DNA from: an uncultured Methanosarcinales archaeon
Lineage (GTDB): Archaea; Nanobdellota; Nanobdellia; Woesearchaeales; BS150m-G63
NCBI GenBank assembly: GCA_964630685.1
Contig: CAZVVW010000001.1
Span: 30,236 to 94,235 of the forward strand
Direction: 5' to 3'
DNA: 64,000 nucleotides
Shown: piece after piece, positions 181 to 57,100 of the stretch
How the letters are laid out: each line of letters opens with the position of its first letter
How positions within the stretch are numbered: the stretch's first letter is position 1
Notes under the pieces: generated by a model
Seen by the model: only the letters and a program-made list of their open reading frames with translations
What the model was told of the DNA's origin: nothing
The model's database searches: none
Program-made: the position numbers and the translations under genes

Positions 181-267
181 ATATAATATAGAGGTTTTTT
201 CGAAAGATTTATATATCCCTTATTGATATTAAAGGTAGTATTCTGATGAAGAGTTCTAAAGATTAAA

Positions 268-12657: not shown

Positions 12658-12682
12658 TTTTTCACCTCTGTTTTTGTTTTTA

Positions 12683-33290: not shown

Positions 33291-33444
33291 TTTTAATTGT
33301 TAAGATTGATTAATGACTTCTCAAAACCTTTTAGGTTTTTTCGAAAGTTTTATATATTTCTCAATTATTTTATTCTCTATTAATTAGGTTTTTTTAGATA
33401 GTAGTACACATTATCCATTTAAGTGTACTAAAAAGAGGTTAAAA

Positions 33445-39513: not shown

Positions 39514-39514
39514 G

Positions 39515-40252: not shown

Positions 40253-43200
40253 GAATTAATAGGAATTTAGTATTATTAGGGGTTTTATTAGTTGTATTTG
40301 TGCTATTCTCTGGGTTAGTTAATGCAGCATGTTATAATTATGAAAACAATTGCAAAATTACTGGTGGTAGTGGAGATATATATACTCAACCAAGGTGTAG
40401 TGATACTGTTCCAGGAGTGAAAGAAGTTCCTCAATGTGGAACGAGTGATACTACTAACCAATATGGTTGTGGATTCGATAATTCTCATAAAAAAGAAGTT
40501 ATGGTGGATTATAGTTATTGTCAGCTTAAATCAAATCCTGGAGCCGGAGATCCAACAGAATGGGTATTGTTAGAAGATGTTATGATTGAAGAAGGGGGAA
40601 CTAAAGTGTTTTATCCAAGAGAGAATAAATATGGAGAATACTCCCCAAAATGTTTAGCTAATGGAAAAACAATTCAATATTCTAAAAAACATATTAGCGG
40701 ATATTATGGTAATCTGGCAAATAGTGTAAATGATTATAATGCTCAAGAGACCTGTTTAGATAATTCTTTTTGTTATTATAAATCTGGTTTTGGAACTGAA
40801 GTGCGTTGTGGTGAATGTGAACTGGATAATAATTTTGTTTGTACTGATTACAGTACTGTCGATAGGGGGGGCAATCCAACTCATAAAGTTTATCCAAAAA
40901 GGGTTGTTGGTGAGTCTATATCTCACAATCAAATAAAACATTCAAAATGTGTGCAAGGAAAATGTAGTGATACATTAACTGAGGTAAATACTTGTGATTA
41001 TGCTTTTGTTAAAGTGAATCTTGGTCAAGGGAATAATGGATATGTTTGTGGAACTGCTGAATGTAAACCAGGATATATTGATAGAGATTGTGAAGAACCT
41101 TATATTGATGGGGAAGAGATTAAATTTAGGATAAAAAAGAATGAAAAAATTTTAGATAGTGAATTGAAATATTATATTTGTGATTCAAATCAGGAATGTG
41201 TTGTGGAAAATGTTTATGATTGTGGAGAAAATAAAAAATCTAGTGATGGTGGTACTGATGAAAATGATCCTGGCTCAAGATGTGAAGAGCCGAGTTGTCG
41301 TAAAATAGGTTTTTTAGAGAAGTTTTGTGAAACAAAAGTTGGAAATGATTGGAAGAAAGTGTATGATGGAACAGAATCAAGAGAATCTTTTTGGGGCATT
41401 GATAGGGTTCCTACAGCAAAATGTGTTGATGGTGTGTGTGTTAAAGATGAAAATAATATGATTGTTAAAGAAAATAAAGTTGTTTGGTTAGATGAAACAT
41501 TGGATTTGCGTTTTTTGGATAAGTGTGTTAAAGTTGGAGATACTGTTAAGTTATTTCCCATTCATGATTTCGGAGACTTTTTTATAAATTATTTTGTGTC
41601 TAATGAACATATATCTCCATCAATGTATGCATTGGATGAATTAAATCCATCAAATGATATAGATAATAATGTAAAAAAAGTGAAAGTTTATTCTTGCAAA
41701 GAAAGTACTGGGCTTGATTTAAATGTTGATTATGAATGGGTTAGTTTTAGGGATCATTCAGAAGAACTTAAAAATTGTGATGGGAATGATGAGAGAGTGT
41801 GGGTGAGTGCTGATAAGACTAAATTTATTTGTCAACCAAATATAAATACTAATGGTGGAGATTCTAGTACAACTGATGGAACTTGGGATAGTTGTGGAGT
41901 TATAACTTCTGGAAATGATGTAGGATATGCTCGTACATGTGAGAGTGGGAAATATTGTGAGATTGGTGAGTATGGATGTAAACCTTTTAGTGTTATACTT
42001 TCATTTGAAGGTGGATTTAAACAAAATAATCATAATAATCCTATTGAGATAAGCATAAAAAGAAGTGATGGGGGGTATGGTCAAACTTATACTAAAGACG
42101 GGAAAGATTTACATGAAGCTGATTTGACTCAATTTACTGGATTGGGATTCACTCATCCAGGAGATTATACATTAAAAGTAAGTGCTCAAGGATATCAAGA
42201 TAAAGAGTTTTCTTTTACTATTTTAGATGGACAAGATGCAATAACTGCTGGTTCTTATGGAGCTAATTATATTAACAATGTAAGATTGGATTTTTTAGAT
42301 GTTATGAGGGGAACAGAGGTTGTTAGCTGTAAATCAAATGAAAAAATATTTTATGATCCAGAACATGTGTTAGAAGAAGCTGGTTGGTTAAGTAAGTTTG
42401 GAAGTGTAATAACTTTTGGGTGGATAAGTGCAGATGATACTACGGGAGAAGTGTTTGCTTGTGTTCCTAAATGTATTAAGGTTGAGGGAGAACATAGTGT
42501 ACAAATACTTGACCAACAGGCAACAACAAAATATAGTCCTATTCCTTCTATATTTACCACCCCACCTGTTTATGATAAACAAGAGATTGTGATTCCTGCC
42601 CCTATCCTTGCAGGATGGAAAACTAAAGAACTTGAATGTGATAGTAATGGTATGGCTGTTAGAGGTGTTATAGAAATAATATGTCCAGATACTGCTAAAC
42701 CTGTTTATAATTCTGATACTAATAAGGTTGACTGTGTTGAAACTTGTGAAGATGTTGCATATGAAGGTTCAAGTAGTTTGGGTACTCATACTTGTAGAGA
42801 TTTGACTGAAAGCGTTGCTATAAAAAAAGAATTAGACAATTTAAATTATAATATGTATAAATGTAAAGAAGGTAATTGTGAATTAGATGACAGTTTTAAA
42901 TTTCAATGTACAGGGGTAACCACAGGTACTGCAACTATTGAGGTAGAAGAAGATCATTATGTTTGTGTTGAAAAACAAAGTTGCGACCCATTAGGAGGGA
43001 GTAATGTTAATAAATGTGATGGAACTCAACAAAGCTGTGGTTGTAGTTTAAGTAATATTTGTATTCCTTGTGATGCACATGAAGTATGTGTACAAGATAG
43101 TACAAATTTGTATGAATGTAAGGGTACTAAATTAACTATTTTATTGCCTGCAGGGATTACTTGTAAAAATGTAGTGTCACATGAAGGGATAGGCTTAAGT

Positions 43201-44085
43201 TTAGTCATGTTTCCCTCAAATTTGGAGGAGGATAGATATGAAATAAATAAGATTCCTGATAAAACTAGTTTTTCAATTAATTTTGCAAAAGGAGACAGGT
43301 CATCACAAGTTCAGGGTATTACTAATTTTGATGAAAATGGAGAACAGGTTTTCACTGTGACTGGTTTAGAGAATCTTGCTGGGTTTGTTGGAACACAAAT
43401 AGAAGGAATGAGAGTTTTGAGTAATAGGATCTTATTTGGTGGCAAACCAACTGTAGGGAAAACTCGGACTGAATTATGTGAAATTGCTAAAACAGAGTTT
43501 AAAGAAGAAGTGAGTGCTAAAGTTAAAGAAATAGAGAGTGAAGGAGTTACATTTCCTTATCAAGATTATGATGTTGAATCATTAAAGCCAAGCATTTGGG
43601 GAGATATATGCAGACTTTATGAGATTACATCTGCCCAAAAACAAGTTGCGTTGGATATTCCCAAATTAACACGTATTAAAGTGAAAAATAATGCAGGTTC
43701 AATAAATACTTTCACTGGATGGAGTAATATAAAGCCAATTCTTCAGAGCAGTTATGGGGAAACAATATTACTTGATTCAAGTAGTGCAAATAATGCATTA
43801 CAGTGGTTTAGGGGATGTATGAAGATTGATGAAACTGTTGATGATATAAGGCAACAATTGTGTGTATATGATGGGGATAAAACTATTCCAGGATGTATTG
43901 TTGTGATGGAGATGAGGTGGGCTGGCGATACTACTGTTGCTGGTGGTTTGAGTGATACTAATTATAATGAGTTAGTTTTTGAACTAAAACATAATGGAAA
44001 TAGGATTTGGGGTCCTCATTCAATAAAAGACCTTGAAATAACTGAAGATATAACACAAGATTCAACTCTTGCTTGTAGTAGTTAA
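40240..44085 (+). CDS. Giant secreted Cys-rich protein (1281 aa) with many CxxGxC / EGF-like-spaced Cys modules
   Basis: Signal peptide; overlaps upstream stop. Confidence 0.5.
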   Translation: MEKLRINRNLVLLGVLLVVFVLFSGLVNAACYNYENNCKITGGSGDIYTQPRCSDTVPGVKEVPQCGTSDTTNQYGCGFDNSHKKEVMVDYSYCQLKSNPGAGDPTEWVLLEDVMIEEGGTKVFYPRENKYGEYSPKCLANGKTIQYSKKHISGYYGNLANSVNDYNAQETCLDNSFCYYKSGFGTEVRCGECELDNNFVCTDYSTVDRGGNPTHKVYPKRVVGESISHNQIKHSKCVQGKCSDTLTEVNTCDYAFVKVNLGQGNNGYVCGTAECKPGYIDRDCEEPYIDGEEIKFRIKKNEKILDSELKYYICDSNQECVVENVYDCGENKKSSDGGTDENDPGSRCEEPSCRKIGFLEKFCETKVGNDWKKVYDGTESRESFWGIDRVPTAKCVDGVCVKDENNMIVKENKVVWLDETLDLRFLDKCVKVGDTVKLFPIHDFGDFFINYFVSNEHISPSMYALDELNPSNDIDNNVKKVKVYSCKESTGLDLNVDYEWVSFRDHSEELKNCDGNDERVWVSADKTKFICQPNINTNGGDSSTTDGTWDSCGVITSGNDVGYARTCESGKYCEIGEYGCKPFSVILSFEGGFKQNNHNNPIEISIKRSDGGYGQTYTKDGKDLHEADLTQFTGLGFTHPGDYTLKVSAQGYQDKEFSFTILDGQDAITAGSYGANYINNVRLDFLDVMRGTEVVSCKSNEKIFYDPEHVLEEAGWLSKFGSVITFGWISADDTTGEVFACVPKCIKVEGEHSVQILDQQATTKYSPIPSIFTTPPVYDKQEIVIPAPILAGWKTKELECDSNGMAVRGVIEIICPDTAKPVYNSDTNKVDCVETCEDVAYEGSSSLGTHTCRDLTESVAIKKELDNLNYNMYKCKEGNCELDDSFKFQCTGVTTGTATIEVEEDHYVCVEKQSCDPLGGSNVNKCDGTQQSCGCSLSNICIPCDAHEVCVQDSTNLYECKGTKLTILLPAGITCKNVVSHEGIGLSLVMFPSNLEEDRYEINKIPDKTSFSINFAKGDRSSQVQGITNFDENGEQVFTVTGLENLAGFVGTQIEGMRVLSNRILFGGKPTVGKTRTELCEIAKTEFKEEVSAKVKEIESEGVTFPYQDYDVESLKPSIWGDICRLYEITSAQKQVALDIPKLTRIKVKNNAGSINTFTGWSNIKPILQSSYGETILLDSSSANNALQWFRGCMKIDETVDDIRQQLCVYDGDKTIPGCIVVMEMRWAGDTTVAGGLSDTNYNELVFELKHNGNRIWGPHSIKDLEITEDITQDSTLACSS

Positions 44086-44086
44086 G

Positions 44087-47000
44087 ATGAAGAATAAATT
44101 AATGGTTGGAAAGAGAAGTTTGATTTTATTAGTGCTAACAATATTCTTATTTATGAATCTTGAAGTGGTGTTTGCTACACCATCAATTCCACCATTACCT
44201 CCAATTAATTTAAATACTATAACAAATAGAGATGTTACTATTGGAACTTATGATATTTCTTCAAATAATGATCCTATTGGAGGCATTAAAGTTTCTTTTA
44301 CAGGAGATTCTATATCTCAAGATGTTTCTTGTACAACTAACAATCAAAATCCTGGAAAAGGTACATGTAAAATTATTCTTCCTGTTGACTCTTATACTCT
44401 TACATTTGAAGAAGGATTGAATTACGAGCTGGATAGTTCGACTAGTTCTTTAGTTCTAGATGTTCCTGAGACTGGAAGTTCAACATTTAATTATATGTTT
44501 AATCAAGTTACTACAGGTACACTTAAAGTTGAAGGGGTGAAAGAGAAGTTAATTAATGGGCAAGAAAATTCTTTAGCAGGTGCACAGATAACTTTAAAGG
44601 ATGATCAAGGAACCTCTGTTGTGGGAGTTAGTGGAACTACAGATGCTAATGGTGGGGCGTCATTGACTGTTGCTGAAGGTACTTATACTGTTATTGCAAG
44701 TAAAGATGGATGGGTAACTACAGAAAAAACAGGGGTGGTTATTACTGCTAATCAAGATACTGTGGTTAATAATATTCCTGCTTTAGATAAAGAAAATAAT
44801 CTTCAATTGAGATATTTGATTGTTAAAGATGATGGTTCTAATACTCCTATTAATGGAATTGAATTATATTTTGAAGGAAATGTTGTTGGAACTAGTGGTT
44901 CAAATGGTAGATTAGAATCGACTATTCAAAGCGTAAATCTTAAACCTATTTTGACATTTAAAGGAAATGGGTATGATGATAAAGATGGGACACCTAGTGC
45001 TGATTTGAGTTATAGTGGCTGGAATGTTTTTGAAGGGGTAAATGCTATTCAGATGGTTAAATCTGCGCCGGTTCTTCCTGCTTGTCTTAGTGTGATTAAA
45101 AAGATGAATGTTACTGCTGATCTCTTAGATGCGTATAATATAAAAGATACTAGTGGAACTAAAAATGGCACTATTCCTAAAGGAACTTTAGTTGATATAT
45201 GTGAAATTGATGGGGATTGGACAAAAGTTAAATCAGGTTCAGGTGTAATTGTTGGATGGGCTAAAAGTGAAGGACTTGAGGATATTGTTGCACCGCCTTT
45301 GAATTTATTAGTAAAAGTTAAAGGAAAAAGACAAGATAACACTGAATTTAATATTAATGAGCAAGGTAAGATATTTGTTGATGGTGTTAAAAAACATGAT
45401 GGAGTAATAGATACTAGTAATCCTACATCTATTGGGGTTAATTCTGCTGAACATACCATTAAAGTTGTTATGAATGGTAATTCCAGATTTGAAGAAGCAA
45501 GTGTAGATAAAACAAAAATGGAAATTGATTTGCTTACAGCTGCTAATACACCCTTAACAATATTAGTTAATGAAAAACCAGGTAATTTAGGGAATATTAG
45601 TGTTACTGTGAAAAATGAAACTGGAGCTTTTATTACAAACGCGGTTGTTAAAATACAATGTTCTGGATGTAATGAAATTGATTTGACTTATATATCTAAT
45701 GGGGTGTATAAAGCAGAAAATGTAGGTATTGGGACTTATAAATTGATTGTGAGCACTGGTACTAATTACCTTCCTTTTGAAAGAGCTAATGTGATTGTTA
45801 GTGCAGGTATCTTAACTTCTATTACTGATGTTGAACTTCTAAAACCTTCAAAGTATGTTGATTTTAAGGTTGTTGTTAAAAATAGCACTAATACTGGAAT
45901 TCCTTTACAGGATGTACTTGTTAGCATACCTCTTTATAATTCAAAGGAAATTACAGATGACCAAGGAAAAGTAACTTTTACTGGATTGGGAAGGGGAGCT
46001 TCAGTAGAAATATCTGCTGAAAAAGAAGGGTATTTTATGATTCCTGTTACTAAAATAGTTGGAGATACTGAAATTACTTTAACTATGAATTTAGTGGGTG
46101 CTATGACAGGACGATTAGGAATAAGTGTTTTTGATGAAGATGGAAAATGTGTTGAGTTGGTTAAAACAGATTTAAAATTAACTGATATTAATAATATGAA
46201 TCCATATCTAAAACAAATAGGTAGTTTAAATAAAGATAATACTTATTGTGGTAAATATTCTTGGTTTGTTTGGAACAATGTTCCTAGTGGCGAACACACA
46301 TTATTGATAACAAAACAAGGATATGATGATTATACTACTTCGATAACTATTACTCCTGGTGGAAGTATGGTTGTTAAAAATGTTATATTGAAGGGTGTAG
46401 TAGGAGATCAATGTAGTGATGATGAGAAATCAAAATGTATTAATGATAATAAATATGTTGAATGTAAAAAAATAGCAGGAGTTCGTAAGTGGGATCTTTC
46501 TAATGAAATAGAATGTGGAGAAGAAAAATTTTGTGTAGATAAAATTGGTTCTTTAAAACGTAAAGCTAATTGTGTTAAAGAAGAAAACAAGTGTGCTTCA
46601 GATGAAAGTGCTAATTATTGTGCGGTAGAATGTACAGGAAATTCTGTGTCTTATAAAAACGGATTATTTGGAACTGGGAATGAACATTGTAAGGCTCTTT
46701 ATGATGATAAGAAAAGGTGTTGCCTTACTGAAGAAGAGGTAGGAAATTTAGATACTAAAGCAGAACAAGAAACGCTTGGAACAGGAGAATGTTCTAAAGC
46801 ACAACAAGGATATCATAGATGTTATGCTGATCAATTACAGAAATGTAGTGGTTCATGGTATACTCTAGGATTGGCTAATCTTAAATGGAAGCAAAAAGAA
46901 GAATGTCCAGTAAATACGCATGTTTGTACTGTTTCAGATAATAAATTAGATGGGGCATGTGTTAAAAAATCAAGAGTTTGTGATATGAAAGGAAATTTAC

Positions 47001-47551
47001 AAGTGATGGTGAATGTGATTGGAGAAGATAAAAAAGATGTTACCATTACATTAAATAGGCATGCTCAAGATAAAATTCAATGTGGAAAGTGGCCCCAAAC
47101 ACATACTGGAAATGCTGGAGAACGGTTTGTTTTAACTAAAAGGTTTACTGATATTCCTTATGGTACTTATGATATAACTATTAGTAAATCAGGTGTTGAT
47201 GAGAAATCACAAGAGATATCTTTTATGGAAAAAGATAGAATAGTTAATATTGAGTATACAACTGGAAAAGCTGTTGAAAAATGTACTGATGAGTTTATAT
47301 TTAGTGAAACTGAATTGAATAAAATAAATGGAATGAATAGAGCTGATTTTAAGGAATTTTGGATGACAGATATTAAAGGAACTACACATAAAGTTAGTTA
47401 TAGTGGGAATCAATTTAAAATAGATAAATTTTGGTTCAGGGGCGCTAAACAAGTTTCTTATAATATTGAGATATATTATTTGAAAAATGAAAAACCTTAT
47501 AGAAGTACTGGAACTTATACTGTTTCAGAAAATCCCTGTGCATCATCATGA
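44087..47551 (+). CDS. Giant secreted protein (~1154 aa) with multiple CarboxypepD_reg-like beta-sandwich repeats and an SH3b-like domain, Cys-rich C-terminal part
   Basis: Repeats such as GAQITLKDDQGTSVVGVSGTTDANGGASLTVAEGTYTVIASKDGW; SH3b-like ...KGTLVDICEIDGDWTKVKSGSGVIVGWAKSEGL. The ORF track's TTG start at 44069 is unlikely; ATG at 44087 follows the upstream TAA by 1 nt. Confidence 0.5.
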   Translation: MKNKLMVGKRSLILLVLTIFLFMNLEVVFATPSIPPLPPINLNTITNRDVTIGTYDISSNNDPIGGIKVSFTGDSISQDVSCTTNNQNPGKGTCKIILPVDSYTLTFEEGLNYELDSSTSSLVLDVPETGSSTFNYMFNQVTTGTLKVEGVKEKLINGQENSLAGAQITLKDDQGTSVVGVSGTTDANGGASLTVAEGTYTVIASKDGWVTTEKTGVVITANQDTVVNNIPALDKENNLQLRYLIVKDDGSNTPINGIELYFEGNVVGTSGSNGRLESTIQSVNLKPILTFKGNGYDDKDGTPSADLSYSGWNVFEGVNAIQMVKSAPVLPACLSVIKKMNVTADLLDAYNIKDTSGTKNGTIPKGTLVDICEIDGDWTKVKSGSGVIVGWAKSEGLEDIVAPPLNLLVKVKGKRQDNTEFNINEQGKIFVDGVKKHDGVIDTSNPTSIGVNSAEHTIKVVMNGNSRFEEASVDKTKMEIDLLTAANTPLTILVNEKPGNLGNISVTVKNETGAFITNAVVKIQCSGCNEIDLTYISNGVYKAENVGIGTYKLIVSTGTNYLPFERANVIVSAGILTSITDVELLKPSKYVDFKVVVKNSTNTGIPLQDVLVSIPLYNSKEITDDQGKVTFTGLGRGASVEISAEKEGYFMIPVTKIVGDTEITLTMNLVGAMTGRLGISVFDEDGKCVELVKTDLKLTDINNMNPYLKQIGSLNKDNTYCGKYSWFVWNNVPSGEHTLLITKQGYDDYTTSITITPGGSMVVKNVILKGVVGDQCSDDEKSKCINDNKYVECKKIAGVRKWDLSNEIECGEEKFCVDKIGSLKRKANCVKEENKCASDESANYCAVECTGNSVSYKNGLFGTGNEHCKALYDDKKRCCLTEEEVGNLDTKAEQETLGTGECSKAQQGYHRCYADQLQKCSGSWYTLGLANLKWKQKEECPVNTHVCTVSDNKLDGACVKKSRVCDMKGNLQVMVNVIGEDKKDVTITLNRHAQDKIQCGKWPQTHTGNAGERFVLTKRFTDIPYGTYDITISKSGVDEKSQEISFMEKDRIVNIEYTTGKAVEKCTDEFIFSETELNKINGMNRADFKEFWMTDIKGTTHKVSYSGNQFKIDKFWFRGAKQVSYNIEIYYLKNEKPYRSTGTYTVSENPCASS

Positions 47552-49326
47552 ATAATAAAATAAAGATTGAAATGGGAATAATGGTTTTATTACTTGTGAG
47601 TATGTTAGTGGTTTTGGCTCCTTTAGTTGTTGGTGTTTCTGCTTTTAGTGATAATGTTGATATATGGGATGCTGCTGATACTTCTACTGTGCATAATGAT
47701 TGCAAAGACCACAATACTGATTGGTCGTGTCAATGTAGTAAAGACCAATGCGATGCTGTAAACGATTCGGACTGTAAAAAAGGTTTATGTACAGATTCTT
47801 CTGTGAGTGAGTTTTATTGTTGTAGTGATGCTGCTGCTGGTGTTACTGGGGGATTGTCTACTTTATGTAAAAAGTTTAAATTTAATGAAAAAATTAAAGG
47901 GGTAACAATAAATATTGGTGGTCAAACAGGCGTTTCTGATGAGGAGGGTGTTTTTATAAGGGACAGCGGAGATAAAAAGGATACTAATTGTTTTAATTTT
48001 GAATTGAAAACTACATTTGGAATGAATGCTCATTTGGAATGTAGTGGCCAAACTGGTACTCAATTAGTGTTTCCAGAAAGTGAGAAATTTGAATCTGTTT
48101 CGTTTTCTTATGAATTAGGAGAGAAAAATATGGCTAAAAAATATGGTTGTTCGGGAGATCCAGATTTAAGAACTCTTTGTAAAAAGTTTAAATTTAATGA
48201 AAAAATTAAAGGGGTAACAATAAATATTGGTGGTCAAACAGGCGTTTCTGATGAGGAGGGTGTTTTTATAAGGGACAGCGGAGATAAAAAGGATACTAAT
48301 TGTTTTAATTTTGAATTGAAAACTACATTTGGAATGAATGCTCATTTGGAATGTAGTGGCCAAACTGGTACTCAATTAGTGTTTCCAGAAAGTGAGAAAT
48401 TTGAATCTGTTTCGTTTTCTTATGAATTAGGAGAGAAAAATATGGCTAAAAAATATGGATGTGGGGCTGAAATTTCGGGTGTTGAAGATACTCCTAGTGT
48501 GCATAATGATTGCAAAGACCACAATACTGATTGGTCGTGTCAATGTAGTAAAGACCAATGCGATGCTGTAAACGATTCGGACTGTAAAAAAGGTTTATGT
48601 ACAGATTCTTCTGTGAGTGAGTTTTATTGTTGTAGTGATGCTGCTGCTGGTGTTACTGGGGGATTGGAATTGAATGAGGAGAGTTTAACGAATTTAACAC
48701 TACAAACAACAGAAATTAATACTGAAAAGGCTGAATTATGCGGAAATACAAATCTTACTTTACTTAAATCAGATTTTTCTCAACCAATTAAATGGAATAC
48801 TTATACTTGCCAAGAATTAAGTGGAACTAACAAAATAAGAGGTATTAATAAAAATTGCTATAAACAATCAGAATATGTTAAATCTACTTCTAATTATTAT
48901 GGATGTAAAGTTAGTACTAAATATTGTTGTCCTTTTATTGAAAATAGTGTAATTGATAATATTCAAATAACTAAAATAATAAATAGTTTAAATGCTAGAA
49001 AGAGTTTTATAACTGATCGTCTTCTTGTTTTATTTAAAACTGCTTTAATAGAATATGATACTGATAACAATGGAACTATTGAGAAATCTGAACAACCCAA
49101 TTGTGTTAATTGTCCAATGAAAATAGGTGACGTTCAAATAGAATTTAAATTCACAACAGAAACCAAACCAACACCAAGTAATACACATTTAATTCGAGAA
49201 ATAAGTAATACTAAATTTAAAATCGATGGATTAAAATACAACTTAAAAATAATATATAATGGAAATACTAAAGCACAATCATTAAATCGAGATTATACTG
49301 CAGAGATACCCTATGAAACACAATAA
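47548..49326 (+). CDS. Secreted Cys-rich protein (592 aa) containing perfect internal module duplications (A-B-B-A)
   Basis: ATGA start/stop overlap; see repeat feature. Confidence 0.5.
   Translation: MNNKIKIEMGIMVLLLVSMLVVLAPLVVGVSAFSDNVDIWDAADTSTVHNDCKDHNTDWSCQCSKDQCDAVNDSDCKKGLCTDSSVSEFYCCSDAAAGVTGGLSTLCKKFKFNEKIKGVTINIGGQTGVSDEEGVFIRDSGDKKDTNCFNFELKTTFGMNAHLECSGQTGTQLVFPESEKFESVSFSYELGEKNMAKKYGCSGDPDLRTLCKKFKFNEKIKGVTINIGGQTGVSDEEGVFIRDSGDKKDTNCFNFELKTTFGMNAHLECSGQTGTQLVFPESEKFESVSFSYELGEKNMAKKYGCGAEISGVEDTPSVHNDCKDHNTDWSCQCSKDQCDAVNDSDCKKGLCTDSSVSEFYCCSDAAAGVTGGLELNEESLTNLTLQTTEINTEKAELCGNTNLTLLKSDFSQPIKWNTYTCQELSGTNKIRGINKNCYKQSEYVKSTSNYYGCKVSTKYCCPFIENSVIDNIQITKIINSLNARKSFITDRLLVLFKTALIEYDTDNNGTIEKSEQPNCVNCPMKIGDVQIEFKFTTETKPTPSNTHLIREISNTKFKIDGLKYNLKIIYNGNTKAQSLNRDYTAEIPYETQ
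47688..48666 (+). repeat. Nested perfect direct repeats inside one gene: A1 47688-47856, B1 47866-48146, B2 48178-48458, A2 48498-48666 (A=169 bp, B=281 bp)
   Basis: Nucleotide-identical copies (offsets 810 and 312). Encodes the Cys-rich module HNDCKDHNTDWSCQCSKDQCDAVNDSDCKKGLC... x2 and the LCKKFKFNEKIKGVTINIGG... module x2. Confidence 0.85.
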
Positions 49327-51085
49327 AATGATAAAAAAATCAAATATATGGATTATTGGAATTTTAGTATTCATTTCTTTAGGTCTTACTGTATCTGTAC
49401 CTGTTAATGCTGAAGATTTAGGAATTTCTTTAGATTTAATTAGATCACTAGTGGCAGAAACGATGAGTGACTCTCAATCACAACAATCACAACAATCACC
49501 AATTTCTATAGTAGAGGATGAAACTGATTTAACTTCAGAAGAATTATCGTGTAATAACGACCAATCTAAATGTCATACAGAAGGATGGAATGGTGGTGGT
49601 GCTGGAAAAGAAGTAGAACCAGTGACATTTGGAAGTGAAACTATTAAATGTTATATAAATAATCAAGAAGACCATGAATGTAAAGGAACTGATGAGAATC
49701 CAACACCTTGTGTGTGTTATAGGATGAGGAGTTATGGTGAATGTATTTCTGGAACAAGGGCTTGTGAAATGGAAGCTAAGTATATGGATGGAAATAATAA
49801 TGAACAGGTTGGCCCATGTAAATGTGGTAATGGATATACTACTGAAGATAAACCTTTTTGTTTAGCTATAGCTGACCAAATATTTTCAACTAAATATGAA
49901 TGTGATGGATATAGTAATACAGCTGACCTATGCGATGAAACAAATTGTGCACAACCTTCTAGCCCACTTTGTGAAGGTAAGCCTTGTAGTGGTGGTGCTG
50001 GAACGTGTACTAATAGTGATCAAGGAATTGTGTGTCAAGCTGATGCTGGAGAAGTTGCATGTAATACTTTAGCACAAGGAAGAGCCAAGTTAATTAAAGT
50101 TGATGATTTAAGTTTTAGAAACCAAGTTAAAAATGATACGAGTGGGTCTAACATCCCAGGAGGTTATAGATGTTATGATGGAGATCACGCTGCTGGAACA
50201 AGTATATGGAGATTTCCCAATACAGCAGAATTAAGAGGTCATAAATGGAATCTAGATGGAGAAGAAAAAGAGATTGATTGGGAAAGATTCCAAAGAGAAT
50301 ATTTGGGTGTTACTAATAGTTATAGTGGACAAGGTAGTGAAGAGTTTAGGAGATTAGTTAATGGGAGAGAATATGCAAGGAATTATCAATGTTGTGTATT
50401 GGTTTCATCTGCTGATTACTCTTTATGGGGTGGATTTTTTGGACCTATAGATCCTAGAGCTCAATGGGTATGGGATAAAACAGGATTGGCAGAAATATAT
50501 GGTGATAAGGTTAATGAATTCTTTGGATTGGATAATTGGAGCCTTGGAGCTATGGAAAATATGACTGATTGGACTGATATGCTTTGTGATAGTGTTAGGG
50601 TTTCTGGAGAAATAGTAGAAGAACCAGAGACGTCTCAGATAGAAGAGGGAGGAATTGTTTATTCAGCTCAAGGAACAAGAGGAGAATGGTTGCCAGATTA
50701 TACTAGATTATATGAGGTTTCTTGGAGTTTACTTAATGAAAGAGGCTCTGATAAAGATATCAATGTTAGTGTTTATCTTAAAGAAGAAGGACAGAATTGT
50801 GAAAATAGCGAAGAGACTCCTGTTTCATGCAAAAAAGCAGCTAAATGGGAAGGTGATGATATAATTAGAAAATTAGTTGCAGAAGGAGAGTATATTTATG
50901 GATATTATTCTTTTTATTATAACCAAAGTGTTAATTTTACAAAAACGTGTGTGACTTATACAGGAGATGGAGGCAATTGTAATTTCCCAATGGTTGATGA
51001 GACTTATGATGCACCTGATCCAGCATTTAGTGAAGGTGAAGAAAACACAGGAGACTCAGAGGTAGATGAAGGTGGCTGGGTATAA
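49313..51085 (+). CDS. Secreted Cys-rich protein (590 aa)
   Basis: Signal peptide; many Cys; overlapping start/stop. Confidence 0.45.
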   Translation: MKHNKMIKKSNIWIIGILVFISLGLTVSVPVNAEDLGISLDLIRSLVAETMSDSQSQQSQQSPISIVEDETDLTSEELSCNNDQSKCHTEGWNGGGAGKEVEPVTFGSETIKCYINNQEDHECKGTDENPTPCVCYRMRSYGECISGTRACEMEAKYMDGNNNEQVGPCKCGNGYTTEDKPFCLAIADQIFSTKYECDGYSNTADLCDETNCAQPSSPLCEGKPCSGGAGTCTNSDQGIVCQADAGEVACNTLAQGRAKLIKVDDLSFRNQVKNDTSGSNIPGGYRCYDGDHAAGTSIWRFPNTAELRGHKWNLDGEEKEIDWERFQREYLGVTNSYSGQGSEEFRRLVNGREYARNYQCCVLVSSADYSLWGGFFGPIDPRAQWVWDKTGLAEIYGDKVNEFFGLDNWSLGAMENMTDWTDMLCDSVRVSGEIVEEPETSQIEEGGIVYSAQGTRGEWLPDYTRLYEVSWSLLNERGSDKDINVSVYLKEEGQNCENSEETPVSCKKAAKWEGDDIIRKLVAEGEYIYGYYSFYYNQSVNFTKTCVTYTGDGGNCNFPMVDETYDAPDPAFSEGEENTGDSEVDEGGWV

Positions 51086-51830
51086 TTTTATTAATTACCT
51101 TAAAAATGTTTTTAAGGTGTTTGGAAATAGTTTTAAATTAGATTTATCTTTTCTTTATAGTATCTTGTTAGATTTATTATTTTATCTCTCAATATTTTTT
51201 ACTTATAATGTATTATATAACATAATTATGGATAGGACATTCGAACTAATGAGTATGAGTGCAGTAGATTTAGGAATTGAACAAATAGGTATGATGGCTA
51301 AATCATTCATGCTGAAATTTTATTTGATGGTAGTTGTGGGAATAGTTTTGTTTATCTTTTTTTATGGAATATTTAAGTCATTAGTCTGGGCAATGACATT
51401 AAAATCAAAGATGAATAAAAAATACATGCAAAACTTTTCAATGTTGAGTTCTATAGGAATTATTTTTTGGGGATTAATAACTTATTTGATTATTGTAACC
51501 GTAACAATTGAAAACACTTTGATAATGTTATTTTTCTTTTTGTTTATCAATTATTTTACTAAAATACTTTTTACAGTATTTAGCCACCATAAATCAAACA
51601 TTAAAAAGAGTTTGAATAGCATGGTAGATATAGCTTTTAAAAAGTTTCACTTATTTATAATTCCTTATGTGTTAGAATTTGCAGTATTTTTAGTTTTATT
51701 TATAATTCTTGTAAATTTTAAATTTTTACCTTTAAGAACTTATTTAATTATAATCTTTTTTATATTTTTAATTTACTTTGCTTGGGCAAGAAAATACTTC
51801 TCAAGTGTGGTTAAAGGAATTATAAAATGA
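51066..51830 (+). CDS. Polytopic membrane protein, family member 2 of 3
   Basis: Motif sharing with 27844 and 60779; the true start may be a downstream ATG (~51228). Confidence 0.4.
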   Translation: MKVAGYNFINYLKNVFKVFGNSFKLDLSFLYSILLDLLFYLSIFFTYNVLYNIIMDRTFELMSMSAVDLGIEQIGMMAKSFMLKFYLMVVVGIVLFIFFYGIFKSLVWAMTLKSKMNKKYMQNFSMLSSIGIIFWGLITYLIIVTVTIENTLIMLFFFLFINYFTKILFTVFSHHKSNIKKSLNSMVDIAFKKFHLFIIPYVLEFAVFLVLFIILVNFKFLPLRTYLIIIFFIFLIYFAWARKYFSSVVKGIIK

Positions 51831-52090
51831 TATTATCAGCTATATTTGGACTTATTGGTGGAGTGACAAGAGCTTTTGTTGGATTATTGAAGTATTATAA
51901 TCTTAATAAAAGAGGTAAATTAAAACTTAGTTATATTCTTTTTACAGTGATTGCTTCTGGCTTCATAGGTGTTTTCTGCGGACTTTTAGTGTCTCAAAGC
52001 TATGTTCTTAGTATGTTGGGAGGATATGCTGGCACAGACTTAATAGAAGGGATATATAAAATTAGAAAACGGCAAGGAATTGTGATTTAG
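51827..52090 (+). CDS. Small 2-3 TM membrane protein (87 aa)
   Basis: ORF with hydrophobic helices; ATGA overlap. Confidence 0.3.
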   Translation: MILSAIFGLIGGVTRAFVGLLKYYNLNKRGKLKLSYILFTVIASGFIGVFCGLLVSQSYVLSMLGGYAGTDLIEGIYKIRKRQGIVI

Positions 52091-52186
52091 CGTCTTTAAA
52101 ATAATAACCTTTTTATAGTCAAAGAGTTTAAAATATTAAAGTCAGTAGAAATATCGGAATTTTAGCTTAAAAAAGAGGACATATTT

Positions 52187-54172
52187 ATGAGCAAAAGAGG
52201 ACAAGTAAGTCAGTTTGTACTAATGGGTATTGTATTAATTCTTGCTATTTCTGTAATTGTTTATGTTCGAGAAGAAAGTATTTTTTTTAGACCTAGTGTT
52301 GTGCTTCCTGCAAAAGTGCAACCAGTTGCTGGATTTGTAGAGACATGTGTAAAAGATCAAGGAATAGAAGCATTAGAATTGGCTGGTTATCAAGGTGGAT
52401 GGGTGGAGCTTCCTGACTATATTAATTATAATCCTTCTACATACATTAATTATGGTGGATTAAAAAAACCTTATTGGTATTATGGTGGTAGAATAATTGC
52501 ACCAACTATTGAGCAAGTTGAAATAGGACTTGCAGATTATCTTGATAAAGAATTACCTTATTGTCTAAACAATCTTTCTGTTTTTGAAAATGAGTTTGAA
52601 GTAAAAATTTATGATGAACCTAAAACAACTGTACAAATAGGTGAGAAAGCAGTAACTTTCAATCTGGAATATCCTGTTAGATTAACAGATAAAACAAATA
52701 GAACAAAAACAAAAGTACTCAATTTTCAATCAATAGTGCCAATTGCGTTTAAAGAATTATATGATTTTGGTATGAGAATATTAGAAATGGAAAATCAAGA
52801 GATGTTTTTTGAAAAAGCAACAGTTGATTTAATGGGGATGAATAAAAATATTCCATTTACAGGACTTAATTTTAAATGTATTTCTGGGCCAATGGAGTGG
52901 AAGGTTGCTGATGTGAGCAGAGAGATAAGGGAATCATTAACAAAAGATATTCATAGAATTAGGATAAAGAATTCAGATTATGTGCCTTTTTATGACGATG
53001 AAAGTGTTTATGAAAGTATCCAAGAAGAATTTGGTGGGGTTGAAGGGAAAACAAAGATTGTTGAGGCTAATATAGTGCCAGATTATGTTCCAATTGATGC
53101 TTATGATTATTTTCATTATTTTTGGGATGTAGGAATAGAGCCCACACGATTTAAAGCTAATTTTAATTATCTTCCTGATTATGGTATAAGATTAAACGTA
53201 AGACCTAGTGAAAAAGGTGTAATGAAAAGTAATGTTGCTAAAGGAACTAGTTATTTGAATTTTTTATGTTTACATGTGCATCATTTTAGTTATGATGTTA
53301 ATTATCCTGTAGAAGTTATGATTAGGGATGATGAAAGTCTTAATGGGCAAGGTTATGTGCTTAGATATGCTTTTCCAGTTATAATTGATCATAATGTGCC
53401 AAATAGACAAAGAACTTCTTCATCTATATTTGATGCTGTTCCTTCTATAAGAGATTATAGTGTTGAATGTGAAGATAAAGAAGGAGATTATACTGTGATT
53501 GCTAATGGGTATGATGAATATTTATTTGAAAGTGAATTAAATAATGTAAGCATAGCTTATGATTGTTTGAAATATATGTGTGATTTAGGCAATACAGGCC
53601 ATACTGGAGAGAGTTATCATAATTTGAATACTGGACTTCCTACTGGATGTTTACATGGATTTGTTGAAGCAAATAAGGAAGGGTATCTTACAACAAGAAA
53701 ACAAGTGACTGCTGACGATATGGAAACAGGACTTATCGAGTTCTGGATACCAAAACTTCAGAGTTTTAATTATAGTATTGTTAAACAGAAATACTATCCT
53801 GCAACAGAAACTTTTGGTGCAGAAGAACCCTTTAATGGAACTGCAAGCATTAATTTAAGAGTAGATGAACTCAAATTTGATGAAAGAGAATTATTGGATC
53901 CAGAGCAAAATCAAGAGCAGAAAATCAATATTTTGGCTGAAGAAGCAATGACTTATAGGTTAGAAATAACTTTATTAGACACAAATGATACTGTTGTTGG
54001 AGGATTTATGGGTGATTGGATTATTGGTTTAGATTTTATAGGTAAAGAAAAAATAGTTTTCAAAACTTTTGAATACTGGCCAACACCCACAAATGAAGAT
54101 GAAGAGATGAATATGTATGTTTATTTAGGTGAAGGAAATTATACTGAAATATTAAAACCTAAATTTGAATAA
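52187..54172 (+). CDS. Large protein with class III (type IV pilin-like) signal peptide (MSKRG|QVSQFVLMGIVLILAISVIVYV), family member 3 of 3
   Basis: SD-like aagagga 8 nt upstream; paralogous region …VAGFVETCVKDQGIEALELAGYQGGWVELPDY…. Confidence 0.55.
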   Translation: MSKRGQVSQFVLMGIVLILAISVIVYVREESIFFRPSVVLPAKVQPVAGFVETCVKDQGIEALELAGYQGGWVELPDYINYNPSTYINYGGLKKPYWYYGGRIIAPTIEQVEIGLADYLDKELPYCLNNLSVFENEFEVKIYDEPKTTVQIGEKAVTFNLEYPVRLTDKTNRTKTKVLNFQSIVPIAFKELYDFGMRILEMENQEMFFEKATVDLMGMNKNIPFTGLNFKCISGPMEWKVADVSREIRESLTKDIHRIRIKNSDYVPFYDDESVYESIQEEFGGVEGKTKIVEANIVPDYVPIDAYDYFHYFWDVGIEPTRFKANFNYLPDYGIRLNVRPSEKGVMKSNVAKGTSYLNFLCLHVHHFSYDVNYPVEVMIRDDESLNGQGYVLRYAFPVIIDHNVPNRQRTSSSIFDAVPSIRDYSVECEDKEGDYTVIANGYDEYLFESELNNVSIAYDCLKYMCDLGNTGHTGESYHNLNTGLPTGCLHGFVEANKEGYLTTRKQVTADDMETGLIEFWIPKLQSFNYSIVKQKYYPATETFGAEEPFNGTASINLRVDELKFDERELLDPEQNQEQKINILAEEAMTYRLEITLLDTNDTVVGGFMGDWIIGLDFIGKEKIVFKTFEYWPTPTNEDEEMNMYVYLGEGNYTEILKPKFE

Positions 54173-54179
54173 GATTAAG

Positions 54180-57100
54180 ATGGAAAGAAAACTAAAAACA
54201 GTACAAGTGATGGCAATAGTGATAATCCAATTAATGTTAATCACACCATTAGCTAGTGCTGTACTTATTCAAGGGGTGGATGTTGAGGTTAGTGGAAATT
54301 CAGCTGTTATCACTTGGACAACAACTGACCCAACTACTACCACAATTAATTATGGAGATACAACATTAAAGGAAAATAGTGTTTCTGATACTAATCTTTT
54401 AGAAGAACATACTATGGAGATAGTTGGATTGAGTCCTGAAACTAAATATTATTATGATATTGTTGCTGAAGATGCAAATAGTAGTAGTACAGAATATTCT
54501 AGTAATTTTATTACAGCAGATATAACTTCACCACCAAAAGTGAGTGGAATTCTAAATGGTACAATTACTGAAACTTCTATTGAATTATTATGGGCACATG
54601 TTAATGTTGTTGATTTTAATCATTATAACATTTTTAGAGATGGAGTTAATATTCATAATGCGACTTCCATTAGTCATGTTGATGATGGATTGATTGCTGG
54701 AATGAGTTATACTTATACTATCTCTGCAGTTGATGACAGCGGAAATATGGGTGAGAGTTCAGACCCCTTTACAGTTTCTACATTGGCTCCAGATATTACT
54801 GGTCCGGCTGTGTTTAATATAAGTATTTTAGCACTTACAGATTCTACAGCTGTGATTGGATGGAATACAGATGAAGAGAGCAATTCAATTATTAATTATG
54901 GTACTTCAGAGTCCTCTTTGGGGTTGAGTGTAACTGATCTTGCGTTAGTCATAGAACATTCTTTGACGATGATAGGGCTGACTAAAGATATTAGATATGT
55001 GTATGTTGTGCAATCTTGCGATGAAGCAGGTAATTGCGATAATTCAGAACCACTTGCGTTCACAGCAGGAGCAGATTACACTCCCCCATTTATTAATGCC
55101 ACAATTCCTGAATATTACAATGGATTGGAAATAGATTTTGATGTTTTTACAGAAAATCATAGTGATGTGCTTGTTTATGTGAATGATATATACAGGCGTT
55201 CTGGAAATAGTGGTTCAGAAGGGAAGGTTTCTTTTAGAAATGTTGATCTAGATAGTGTTTTAGGCACTAATGTTATTAGGATTGAAGCTGTTGATCAAAT
55301 TGGAAATGAAGCTGTTCAAAATTATAATTTGGAACTAGATTTTGTTGCTCCTGTTATGGATATAACCACAAATGTCACTAATCTTACAACTGAAAGGAGT
55401 ATTACAATACAAGGAAATGTTGATGAGCTGAGTACAATTAGATTCTTTTTAGAATTAGATCCATTTGATACAACACCGCCTGAAAAAGTGACTGAATTGG
55501 TTGCTGTTAATGTTGAAACTAATAATGTTGAATTAGAGTGGAAAAAAAGTATAGCAGAAGATTTTAATTATTATTTAATTTATAGAGAAGATATAGGACT
55601 TATTGCAACCTCTACAAGGGAAAATTATAAAGATGAAAATGTTAATTCTGGAATAACTTATAATTATTGGGTGATTGCTGTTGATAATGATTGTATTAAA
55701 GGAGGGGGTTCTGATGTTATAGCTGTTAGAACTCAAGAGGGTGAAGAGGCAATTGTTGAGTTGGATGTAGAACAAGTAGTTGCAGAATGTGATATCACAT
55801 CACCAGAAGTTGAATTAGAAACAAGTGGATATTTTAGTGAAAAAATAAATCTAAGAAAAGGGATTAATAAAATAAAAGTAGAAGCTAGTGATAAAGCTGG
55901 TAATGCTGTTGTTTGGGAAGTGCAAACAATTCATGATACTGATGCTCCAAAGTTTGTTTCTGATAATATTGATGCATTAAATCCTAGTTATAGTGAATAT
56001 GTCACAATAAAAGGGCAAGTGGATGAACCATCAACTGTTTATGTCTATCTAAATGAACGTGTTGTTCCAGATCATTTTACTCAAACTGATAATCAAGGTA
56101 ATTTTGCTGTCGAAGTTCAATTAAGAAAAGACGAAGAGATTGGAAGGGCAGGTGAATTAAAGTGGAGAAATGAATTAACTTTAATGGCTGTGGATATTGC
56201 TGGTTTAAACGGCACAATAGATGGAAGAATAGATTTTTCTAGATGTGGTGGCGGAAACATGGATTGGATTGTTAACACAAGAGATTTATATCCAGATTCA
56301 CTTGTTCCAAGACTTTTATTAGAAGGGATGGGACAATTTACTTTAGGTGTTGATTTAGAATGGCAAGGTGCTGGGGCTGAACCAGAAAGATTTAATGCAA
56401 TACCCAGAATTGAAAAATTAGATTTAAGTATAGAAGAAAAAGTAAATTATGATGAAGAATATTTAAGATCTAGAGTGTTGATGCCAGACAGAAAAGATAG
56501 AACTTTGACTGTGCTTGTTGATATAAATGCATTACCTGACCCAACTCCTGCTGGAGAAAATTGGACTTCTTATGATAAAGAAGATAATATAAGCAAAATG
56601 CATGCAGGTGAATGTTTTGGAAGTTCTACTTTATCTAATGTTGGAGTAGATGTTATGGAAGGTGTTGGATGTATAAAGGCACCCCTTGAACTTATTTTGA
56701 AATATAAATGCGAAGAGTATGATAGTCATGGATATTTGAGAAATGAAACTTGTATACAAAAAGAGTGCATTTTTGTTGATATGCTTATTGAACCAAGAAT
56801 AGATCCTAGTAAGATGTTTAATAAAGATTTATTAGGTGCAATGGTTGGATTTTTGAATGGTTCTATTGAGGCAATAAATGCCGTTTTGGAATCTTTAGAG
56901 ACTGTTTCTAGGATTACAATGGCTGGATGTGCTGTTGGTTGGGCTTTATTGACTGTTAAGAAAGTATCTGAGTTTAAAGCTTGTTATGTTTCAACTAGTT
57001 TTAAAGATTTAATTGCTAATTTACAATTAGAAGAAATTTGCGAAAGTTGTAATGTGGTAGATGGTTCTGTGATTTGTCCAATAAGTGATGATGATATTAA

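What the first reader, a model, noticed from the sequence alone, without database searches (positions are those of the whole stretch)
47688..48666. Perfect nested direct repeats (A-B-B-A) inside a secreted Cys-rich protein gene
Two different segments of 47548..49326 are each present twice with nucleotide identity: A (169 bp: 47688-47856 and 48498-48666) and B (281 bp: 47866-48146 and 48178-48458). The result is a protein with duplicated Cys-rich knot-like modules and duplicated beta modules. Perfect identity implies a very recent duplication, ongoing gene conversion or cassette shuffling of a surface-exposed protein, or an assembly collapse/expansion artefact.
Basis: seen in the sequence. Interest (0 to 1): 0.65.

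Follow-up and report, generated by a model that had tools for sequence, protein, structure and literature searches.

The report
Exact internal repeats in archaeal secreted protein
A secreted, cysteine-rich orphan protein gene of a tiny symbiotic-type (Woesearchaeota-like, DPANN) archaeon really does carry two pairs of perfectly identical in-frame repeats. The repeats are real, but public assemblies disagree on how many copies of one unit there are, which makes this an ordinary case of repeat homogenisation and length instability in a surface-type protein.

Summary
A (169 nt, 47688-47856 = 48498-48666) and B (281 nt, 47866-48146 = 48178-48458) are each 100% identical, and they are the only long repeats in the 64 kb. 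Both lie in frame in ORF 47548-49326 (592 aa; signal peptide; 32 Cys). This gene sits in an operon of orphan, Cys-rich secreted proteins of a Woesearchaeota-like archaeon.

Eleven contigs from other assemblies of the same population cover this locus:
- Four resolve the gene as A-B-A, exactly one 312-nt unit shorter. One of them is otherwise 21,467/21,467 nt identical to the window.
- Seven break inside A or B.
- In one independent JGI assembly, two contigs stop exactly 119 nt inside B from each side. B therefore has two left and two right contexts there too.

The 31-nt B-B linker is unique and cannot be built from the flanks. The two-B form is therefore real, and the one-B form is a collapse or a B1xB2 deletion allele. 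A has a diverged but homologous left flank, and one polymorphism appears at the same position of both copies. This points to gene conversion.

Only A has relatives: two proteins among 1.8 billion. B and the C-terminal part are orphans. I see no cassette or DGR machinery. The kind of event is ordinary; function is unknown.

The parts
47548..49326 (+). ORF of 592 aa (stop included) for a secreted, cysteine-rich orphan protein. Its ATG overlaps the upstream stop (ATGA), and its 3' end overlaps the next ORF by 14 nt.
   Evidence: ORF and start overlap; only itself and a 488-aa variant among 5.8 billion proteins; no Pfam or NCBIfam family
47548..47643 (+). N-terminal signal peptide or anchor, MNNKIKIEMGIMVLLLVSMLVVLAPLVVGVSA. 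The cleavage site after VSA is inferred by eye.
   Evidence: the only TM-like segment starts at residue 3; helix 3-29, the only confident part of the model
47658..47687 (+). Diverged left flank of A1, homologous to 48468-48497 (21/30 nt identical, in frame: DAADTST versus GVEDTPS).
   Evidence: P = 4e-6 against the composition background
47688..47856 (+). Repeat A, copy 1: 169 nt, residues 47-103, an 8-Cys module (C-x7-WSCQC-x4-C-x7-C-x4-C-x9-YCC).
   Evidence: 100% identical to A2; A-like modules in P0005 and P0006; AF2 pLDDT 76.8
47857..47865 (+). s1: unique 9-nt linker (STL) between A1 and B1.
47866..48146 (+). Repeat B, copy 1: 281 nt exact. The protein unit CKKFKF...KKYGC has 4 Cys and no detectable relatives.
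   Evidence: no hit to B among 1.84 billion representatives; JGI contig L091 ends at 47984, 119 nt into B1
48147..48177 (+). s2: unique 31-nt linker between B1 and B2 (encodes ...CSGDPDLRTL). It occurs once in the window and is not derivable from the flanks of a single-B allele.
   Evidence: unique; the best flank chimera has 16/31 mismatches; absent from all fetched loci
48178..48458 (+). Repeat B, copy 2: 281 nt. Start-to-start distance to copy 1 is 312 nt, or 104 codons.
   Evidence: (JGI contigs L088 and L089 start at 48329 and 48340, inside B2)
48459..48497 (+). s3: unique 39-nt linker between B2 and A2. Its last 30 nt are the diverged homologue of the A1 left flank.
48498..48666 (+). Repeat A, copy 2: 169 nt, 810 nt (270 codons) downstream of copy 1.
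   Evidence: Logan contig L090 starts at 48637, the last 30 nt of A2; polymorphic site 48571, homologous to 47761
48667..49326 (+). Non-repeated C-terminal region (about 219 aa, 8 Cys) with no detectable relatives and no C-terminal anchor.
36139..61672 (+). Surrounding same-strand cluster of tightly packed or overlapping ORFs. It encodes large Sec-signal, Cys-rich proteins (2.6-5.4% Cys; only Ig-like, CarboxypepD_reg, PEGA and fn3 domains are recognisable) plus multipass membrane proteins.

Best explanation
**Proposal.** ORF 47548-49326 encodes an extracellular, disulfide-rich modular protein of a Woesearchaeota-like (DPANN) archaeon. Its layout is signal peptide, A, B, B, A, C-terminal domain.

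**Origin of the repeats.** Both repeat pairs are genuine genomic duplications, not assembler inventions. The two A copies are old paralogous modules whose 169-nt core has been homogenised by intragenic gene conversion (non-reciprocal homologous recombination). The two B copies are a tandem pair with a 312-nt period. They are kept identical in the same way, or were copied very recently onto a pre-existing linker.

**Consequence.** Because B1 and B2 are 281 nt of perfect identity only 31 nt apart, two things follow:
- Short-read assemblers mis-count them. This explains the single-B contigs and the broken contigs elsewhere.
- In the cell they are a substrate for unequal recombination or replication slippage, which removes or adds whole 104-residue modules in frame.

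The real copy number in the population is at least 2 and may be heterogeneous.

**Shown:** the repeats, the reading frame, the unique linkers, the differences between assemblies, the contig break points and the shared polymorphism.

**Inferred:** gene conversion as the mechanism, extracellular location, disulfide bonding, and any functional role of length change.
For: 1. Exact repeats, in frame.
2. s2 is a unique 31-nt sequence flanked by B on both sides. Reads must therefore have spanned B-s2-B. It cannot be formed by joining the flanks of a single-B allele (best chimera 16/31 mismatches). By contrast, the single-B form equals the window minus 312 nt with 0 mismatches over 21,467 nt (L001). 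That is what B1xB2 recombination or loop-skipping by an assembler produces.
3. Evidence from an independent assembly graph. In JGI 3300009008 the left contig ends at 47984 and the right contig starts at 48340, which is 119 nt inside B from each boundary, while A is read through. B is thus a node that branches at exactly the window's repeat boundaries. L088 (JGI 3300007511) starts 119 nt before a SNP specific to B2.
4. A is present twice in all resolved assemblies. Where contigs break in A, they stop 30, 55 or 115 nt inside it. In three JGI samples (contigs L002, L003 and the pair L091 + L089) A1 and A2 differ by one base (47761 G versus 48571 A), which proves they are two physical copies.
5. 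Signs of conversion in A. The core is 169/169 identical, but the adjoining 30 nt are 21/30 identical (P = 4e-6), in frame and similar at protein level. The same A>G change occurs at homologous positions in the states (A,A), (G,A) and (G,G), among contigs that otherwise differ at no more than 4 sites per 10 kb.
6. Secreted and Cys-rich. There is one N-terminal hydrophobic segment, no other TM segment, and an even number of Cys per module (8, 4, 4, 8, 8). The neighbouring genes have the same character.
7. Archaeal, Woesearchaeota-like host. The window encodes a proteasome subunit, FttA, a RuBisCO large-subunit homologue and RNR. The best FttA matches are Woesearchaeota MAGs at about 71% identity.
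Against: - No reads, coverage or long reads were available, so copy number (2, or more) and heterogeneity are not measured.
- All four assemblies that resolve the locus, other than the window, show one B. If they are correct, the window's form is a minority allele.
- For B the flanks are not significantly similar (4/9 and 8/31 nt). An old duplication followed by conversion is therefore not demonstrated for B. A recent copy event with a novel linker would fit equally well.
- The (G,G) state rests on one re-assembly (L004). It has the same length and ends as the JGI contig L002, which is (G,A). It could be an assembler consensus effect rather than a conversion event.
- Extracellular location and disulfides are inferred from sequence only.
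Confidence: 0.7

Rival explanations
1. Genuine copy-number polymorphism used as a length or valency switch. Cells with one, two or more B modules coexist, and the single-B contigs are real alleles rather than collapses. The protein would then behave like a variable-length surface protein.
For: Four contigs from different samples carry exactly one B with clean in-frame junctions. A 281-nt perfect tandem repeat is a known substrate for frequent deletion and expansion (general knowledge). The surface-type context fits.
Against: L001 is identical to the window at all 21,467 other positions. This is what re-assembly of the same or a clonal population with a loop skipped would give. Assemblies that do not resolve the region break at B, as expected if two B contexts are present. 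There are only two copies and not a long array. No C-terminal anchor or distal binding domain was identified.
Confidence: 0.3
2. Assembly expansion artefact. The true gene is A-B-A, and the window's assembler traversed B twice.
For: Every other assembly that resolves the locus has one B. Tandem repeats longer than the read length are often mis-assembled.
Against: An assembler cannot invent the unique, in-frame 31-nt s2. An independent JGI assembly has B as a node branching on both sides at the same boundaries. That would not happen if B had only the contexts s1 and s3.
Confidence: 0.06
3. Two independent, very recent duplications with no older paralogy and no ongoing conversion. Identity simply reflects youth.
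For: There are zero differences in 169 and 281 nt. The B flanks show no significant homology.
Against: The A left flank is clearly homologous but 30% diverged, right next to a perfect core. s2 is not explained by a simple tandem duplication. The same polymorphism appears in both A copies in some assemblies.
Confidence: 0.15
4. Programmed diversification: cassette shuffling from silent copies, or a diversity-generating retroelement acting on the modules.
For: None beyond the surface-protein context.
Against: There are no extra A or B copies on either strand in 64 kb. No reverse transcriptase, integrase or invertase appears among the ORFs scanned. The copies are identical rather than hypervariable.
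Confidence: 0.02

Closest known systems
Periscope proteins: bacterial variable-length surface proteins such as Rib/alpha C, SasG/Aap and Sgo_0707 (Whelan et al. 2021, PMC8201768)
   Same: A secreted or surface-type protein with whole folded-domain-sized repeats (about 104 aa) that are near-identical at DNA level. High DNA identity favours intragenic recombination and change in repeat number. Short-read assemblies mis-count such repeats, as that paper also notes.
   Different: This protein is archaeal, not bacterial. It has only two tandem copies, not a long array. The second repeat pair (A) is dispersed and brackets the tandem pair. No wall or membrane anchor and no distal ligand-binding domain are recognisable. 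Variation in repeat number between strains is not proven here.
Concerted evolution by intragenic gene conversion in repeat-bearing genes (general phenomenon)
   Same: A sharp switch from a 100% identical core to a flank about 30% diverged at A. The same SNP is present at homologous sites of both copies in some assemblies.
   Different: Conversion was not observed directly. For B, the flank evidence is not significant.
P0005, a 1555-aa hypothetical protein on an NCBI MAG contig (GCA_018823985.1, JAHJHA010000253.1), and P0006 (77 aa)
   Same: These are the only detectable relatives. They carry the same 8-Cys WSCQC...LC...YCC module (45-53% identity in the representative search). P0005 also has two copies that bracket a long insert.
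   Different: The two modules of P0005 are diverged from each other, with no sign of homogenisation. The bracketed region (about 970 aa) is unrelated to B. No function is known for either protein.

Membership tests
Periscope proteins (PMC8201768) | Tandem array of highly similar folded domains with high DNA identity | tested here: inconclusive
   B1 and B2 are 281/281 nt identical with period 312. However, there are only 2 copies, and the fold of B is unknown (pLDDT below 50).
Periscope proteins (PMC8201768) | Repeat number varies between closely related strains | tested here: inconclusive
   There is 1 B in L001-L004 and 2 in the window. Assembly collapse explains this at least as well.
Periscope proteins (PMC8201768) | Bacterial cell-surface protein with a C-terminal wall attachment motif and an N-terminal ligand-binding domain projected by the repeats | tested here: not met
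   The host is archaeal. The only hydrophobic segment is N-terminal, and no C-terminal anchor is present. No recognisable binding domain was found.
Periscope proteins (PMC8201768) | The repeat region forms an elongated rod | not testable with these tools
   No confident structure model could be obtained for B.
Any curated protein domain family (Pfam-A, NCBIfam, PDB sequences) | Match above the family threshold | tested here: not met
Diversity-generating retroelement or silent-cassette antigenic variation systems | A reverse transcriptase with a template repeat, or additional silent copies of the variable module | tested here: not met
   No further copies of A or B in the window at DNA or protein level. 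No RT or recombinase domains in the ORFs scanned. Only 64 kb were examined.
Assembly artefact (repeat expansion) | The extra copy is joined without any sequence that is unique to the junction | tested here: not met
   The 31-nt junction s2 is unique and is not a chimera of the flanks. An independent assembly branches at the same B boundaries.

The most novel reading that the evidence does not exclude
The number of 104-residue B modules genuinely varies (1, 2 or more) among cells of this DPANN population. The WSCQC...YCC module (A) is a new disulfide-rich domain whose two copies pair to bracket and present a variable insert. P0005 also has two A-like modules bracketing an insert. This would be an archaeal analogue of variable-length bacterial surface proteins, possibly tuning contact with a host cell.
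Probability: 0.2. Interest if true: 0.5.

Novelty: new member of a known kind. Interest (0 to 1): 0.3.

Why it matters
Biologically, it adds an archaeal (DPANN) example of a phenomenon well documented in bacteria. Surface-type proteins there have domain-sized repeats that stay identical at DNA level and are therefore unstable in length. If the variation is real, it would bear on how an episymbiont-type archaeon varies its exposed proteins.

Practically, it is a clean worked example of how exact repeats of 169 and 281 nt make public metagenome assemblies of one population disagree. Four contigs are a full domain short and seven are broken at the repeats. Protein databases consequently hold a 488-aa and a 592-aa version of what is probably one gene.

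It also flags a very rare 8-Cys module, found in three proteins among 1.8 billion representatives, with a moderately confident model and no match among solved structures.

Tried and rejected
- **Homology of the whole protein.** The word-indexed search found only itself and the 488-aa variant. The full HMMER scan of 1.84 billion representatives added only two hits, both to module A. A profile search with the four A modules scored just two candidates.
- **Domain and structure searches.** Pfam, NCBIfam and PDB sequence searches gave nothing.
- **Paralogues.** I looked for A, B or C-terminal paralogues in the window and found none.
- **Metagenome scans.** I scanned metagenome contigs for the s2 junction and for a mid-B 36-mer. 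Both scans gave 0 hits. The mid-B 36-mer is present in JGI contigs L002 and L003, which the scan did not return. That collection therefore lacks these samples, and both nulls are uninformative.
- **Genome scan.** A genome-contig scan with the protein found no relative. The species is evidently not among the representative genomes.
- **Neighbouring gene.** The downstream 590-aa protein is also an orphan, so synteny with other lineages could not be used.
- **Source sample.** Paper searches for the accessions returned nothing (SAMN10231914, SAMN10231901, SRR8062320, SRR8062321, the JGI ids). My guess that the 'SUTE22-1' label points to a Cariaco Basin study could not be verified, and I do not rely on it.
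- **Fresh tandem duplication.** I rejected a simple fresh tandem duplication of a single-B allele as the origin of s2.
- **Bacterial promoter and terminator scan.** The results were at or below the shuffled expectation and are irrelevant for an archaeon.

Full report
**1. Observation**

Window 47688-47856 equals 48498-48666 (169 nt), and 47866-48146 equals 48178-48458 (281 nt). Identity stops at the very next base on each side.

The repeat finder gives the same pairs with short imperfect extensions: 199 nt at 95% with spacing 810, and 291 nt at 99% with spacing 312. TRF reports a 312-nt period with 1.9 copies. In the whole 64-kb window there is no other repeat of 40 nt or more, except a 12-nt microsatellite and a 40-nt promoter-like box.

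All copies are direct. Spacings of 312 and 810 nt are multiples of three. Everything lies in ORF 47548-49326 (+), 592 aa. The layout is:

| Segment | Length | Note |
|---|---|---|
| signal peptide | 32 aa (inferred) | N-terminal |
| A1 | 169 nt | repeat A |
| s1 | 9 nt | unique linker |
| B1 | 281 nt | repeat B |
| s2 | 31 nt | unique linker |
| B2 | 281 nt | repeat B |
| s3 | 39 nt | unique linker |
| A2 | 169 nt | repeat A |
| C-terminal region | about 219 aa | not repeated |

**2. Context**

The window is archaeal. It encodes a proteasome subunit, FttA/aCPSF1, a RuBisCO large-subunit homologue, ribonucleotide reductase and MetRS. GC content is 31.6%. FttA finds its best matches, at about 71% identity, in Woesearchaeota/Nanoarchaeota MAGs. 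The host is therefore a Woesearchaeota-like DPANN archaeon with no close representative genome.

The gene sits in a long same-strand cluster (36139-61672) of overlapping or abutting ORFs. The start ATG overlaps the upstream stop as ATGA. Most products have a single N-terminal hydrophobic signal, no other TM segment and 2.6-5.4% Cys. They are interspersed with multipass membrane proteins. Recognisable domains are limited to CarboxypepD_reg, PEGA, Ig-like and fn3.

The 592-aa protein has 32 Cys, distributed evenly by module: 8 per A, 4 per B unit and 8 in the C-terminal part. This fits independently disulfide-bonded extracellular modules, but that is an inference.

**3. Relatives**

Among 5.8 billion clustered proteins, only the protein itself (P0001, NCBI) and a 488-aa form (P0002) were found. 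A full HMMER scan of 1.84 billion representatives added two hits, both to module A:
- P0005, 1555 aa, with two diverged A-like modules bracketing about 970 aa.
- P0006, 77 aa.

The shared motif is C-x7-WSCQC ... C ... LC ... YCC. B and the C-terminal region have no detectable relatives.

**4. What other assemblies show**

This is the key evidence.

*Contigs that resolve the locus.* P0002 is exactly the window protein minus 104 residues.
- Its contig L001 (ENA re-assembly of SAMN10231914, 150.7 kb) equals the window with one 312-nt unit removed. There are 0 mismatches over 21,467 nt.
- Three further contigs also read A-B-A: L002 and L003 from JGI, and L004 from ENA. They differ from the window at 2-4 SNPs.

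*Contigs that stop in the repeats.*

| Contig | Source | Where it stops |
|---|---|---|
| L094, L095 | Logan | end 30 nt into A1 |
| L090 | Logan | starts with the last 30 nt of A2 (k = 31) |
| L093 | ENA SAMN10231913 | ends 55 nt into A1 |
| L092 | JGI 3300007510 | ends 115 nt into A1 |
| L091 | JGI 3300009008 | ends at 47984, exactly 119 nt into B1 |
| L089 | JGI 3300009008 | starts at 48340, exactly 119 nt before the end of B2 |
| L088 | JGI 3300007511 | starts 119 nt before a SNP (48448) specific to B2 |

In sample 3300009008, A1 carries G at 47761 and A2 carries A at 48571. A is then no longer an exact long repeat, and both contigs read through it, yet both stop at B. A contig that ends one k-mer inside a segment from both sides marks that segment as a branching node. 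B must therefore have two left and two right contexts in that independent assembly, at precisely the window's repeat boundaries. This is what B-s2-B predicts. A single B flanked only by s1 and s3 would not branch.

**5. Direction of the difference**

s2 (TTGTTCGGGAGATCCAGATTTAAGAACTCTT) occurs once in the window. It cannot be generated by joining any prefix of the right flank of B to any suffix of the left flank; the best chimera has 16/31 mismatches. The two-B form is therefore not a fresh tandem duplication of the one-B form, and an assembler cannot have invented it.

The one-B form, conversely, is exactly the product of recombination between B1 and B2, or of an assembler skipping the B-s2-B loop. 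I conclude that at least two B copies are real. The single-B contigs are probably collapses. A minority deletion allele cannot be excluded, because 281 nt of perfect tandem identity is a good substrate for deletion and expansion (general knowledge).

The graph X-A-s1-B-s2-B-s3-A-Y has a unique traversal if each linker is used once. Higher multiplicities (more B, or extra s1-B-s3-A rounds) are also compatible, and only coverage or long reads can exclude them.

**6. Why the copies are identical**

*For A.* The perfect 169-nt core abuts a left flank that is clearly homologous but diverged: 21/30 nt identical, P = 4e-6, in frame, DAADTST versus GVEDTPS. Purifying selection cannot hold synonymous sites at 100% next to a flank at 70%. 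The core has therefore been homogenised recently by gene conversion.

The same A>G (Asn>Asp) change is found at homologous sites 47761 and 48571 in three states:
- (A,A) in the window and L001.
- (G,A) in L002, L003 and the pair L091 + L089.
- (G,G) in L004.

These contigs otherwise differ at no more than 4 sites per 10 kb. This pattern is what exchange between the copies produces. There is a caveat: L004 has the same length and ends as L002 and may be a re-assembly of the same sample, so its (G,G) call could be an assembler effect.

*For B.* The flanks are not significantly similar, at 4/9 and 8/31 nt. There is only a synonymous GGT/GGA difference followed by a shared TGT at the 3' edge. Conversion of an old pair and a very recent copy event are both possible.

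The order A-B-B-A cannot come from duplicating an A-B unit. The A and B pairs have separate histories.

**7. What it is not**

There are no additional A or B copies, no inverted copies, no reverse transcriptase and no recombinase in the window. Cassette shuffling and DGR-type diversification are therefore unsupported.

**8. Comparison with known systems**

The closest functional analogy is the bacterial 'Periscope proteins'. In these, tandem domain repeats that are near-identical at DNA level change in number by intragenic recombination, and short reads mis-assemble them (PMC8201768).

Membership is not claimed, for four reasons:
- The host is archaeal.
- There are only two tandem units.
- No C-terminal anchor or distal binding domain is visible.
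- Strain-level variation in repeat number is unproven.

**9. Verdict**

This is an ordinary kind of event in an unusual and poorly known lineage and in an orphan protein. Interest is about 0.3.

Noticed in passing
window 199-216 and 33340-33357 (+): An exact 18-nt box, TTCGAAAG(A/T)TTTATATAT, looks like an archaeal BRE/TATA promoter. It lies about 50 nt upstream of the proteasome gene (268) and about 90 nt upstream of ORF 33445. There are 4 matches at 3 mismatches or fewer, against 0.73 expected.
   Followed up: partly
window 33445-35073 and 52187-54172 (+): Both ORFs begin with K(K/R)(A/G)Q-V-(T/S)-x-F followed by a hydrophobic stretch (VDKKAQVTLFIVIG..., MSKRGQVSQFVLMG...). This resembles archaeal class III (type IV pilin-like) signal peptides. 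Neither has a Pfam hit.
   Followed up: no
window 36139-61672 (+): The whole cluster consists of large, Cys-rich, Sec-signal proteins with almost no recognisable domains, plus multipass membrane proteins at 51066-51830, 51827-52090 and 60779-61672. The 590-aa protein downstream of the finding is also an orphan, found only in this population.
   Followed up: partly
window 32205-32268, inside ORF 31008-32552 (-): A perfect 12-nt tandem repeat, TTGTTGTGTTTG, in 5.3 copies and in frame. This is another potentially length-variable coding repeat.
   Followed up: no
window 49200-49320 versus 47400-47545: There is weak similarity between the C-terminal ends of the 592-aa protein and the upstream 1154-aa protein (FKID...YN(L/I)xI(I/Y)Y; 35% over 48 aa; pairwise E = 0.022). 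It may be a shared terminal beta motif.
   Followed up: partly
L088 position 120 (window 48448): In JGI sample 3300007511, the contig that enters B2 from the right carries an A>G (Lys>Glu) change 11 nt before the end of B. The contig begins exactly 119 nt upstream of it. In that sample the B copies (or strains) are therefore not identical.
   Followed up: partly
L085 587-5254 (P0005; NCBI GCA_018823985.1, JAHJHA010000253.1): A 1555-aa hypothetical protein carries two diverged copies of the 8-Cys A-like module, near residue 463-513 and near the C-terminus. They bracket about 970 aa. This hints that A modules occur in bracketing pairs.
   Followed up: partly
window 6940-9759 (+), residues 877-930: The C-terminus of a 939-aa protein gives a sub-threshold hit to Pfam PF22812, 'Plant cysteine-rich protein domain' (E = 4.4e-5; 24.3 bits against a cut-off of 34.1). 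It also has a Wzt_C-like domain. It is unrelated to module A by phmmer.
   Followed up: no
window 11377-12876 (-) and 12683-13627 (-): The RuBisCO large-subunit ORF, as listed from a TTG start, overlaps the upstream ORF by about 190 nt. Its Pfam N-terminal domain begins only at residue 76, so the true start is probably further downstream.
   Followed up: no
Metagenome-contig collection: Exact-match scans did not return JGI contigs Ga0118721_1006220 and Ga0117917_1008475, although these contain the query 36-mer. Null results from that collection should not be read as absence from JGI data.
   Followed up: yes
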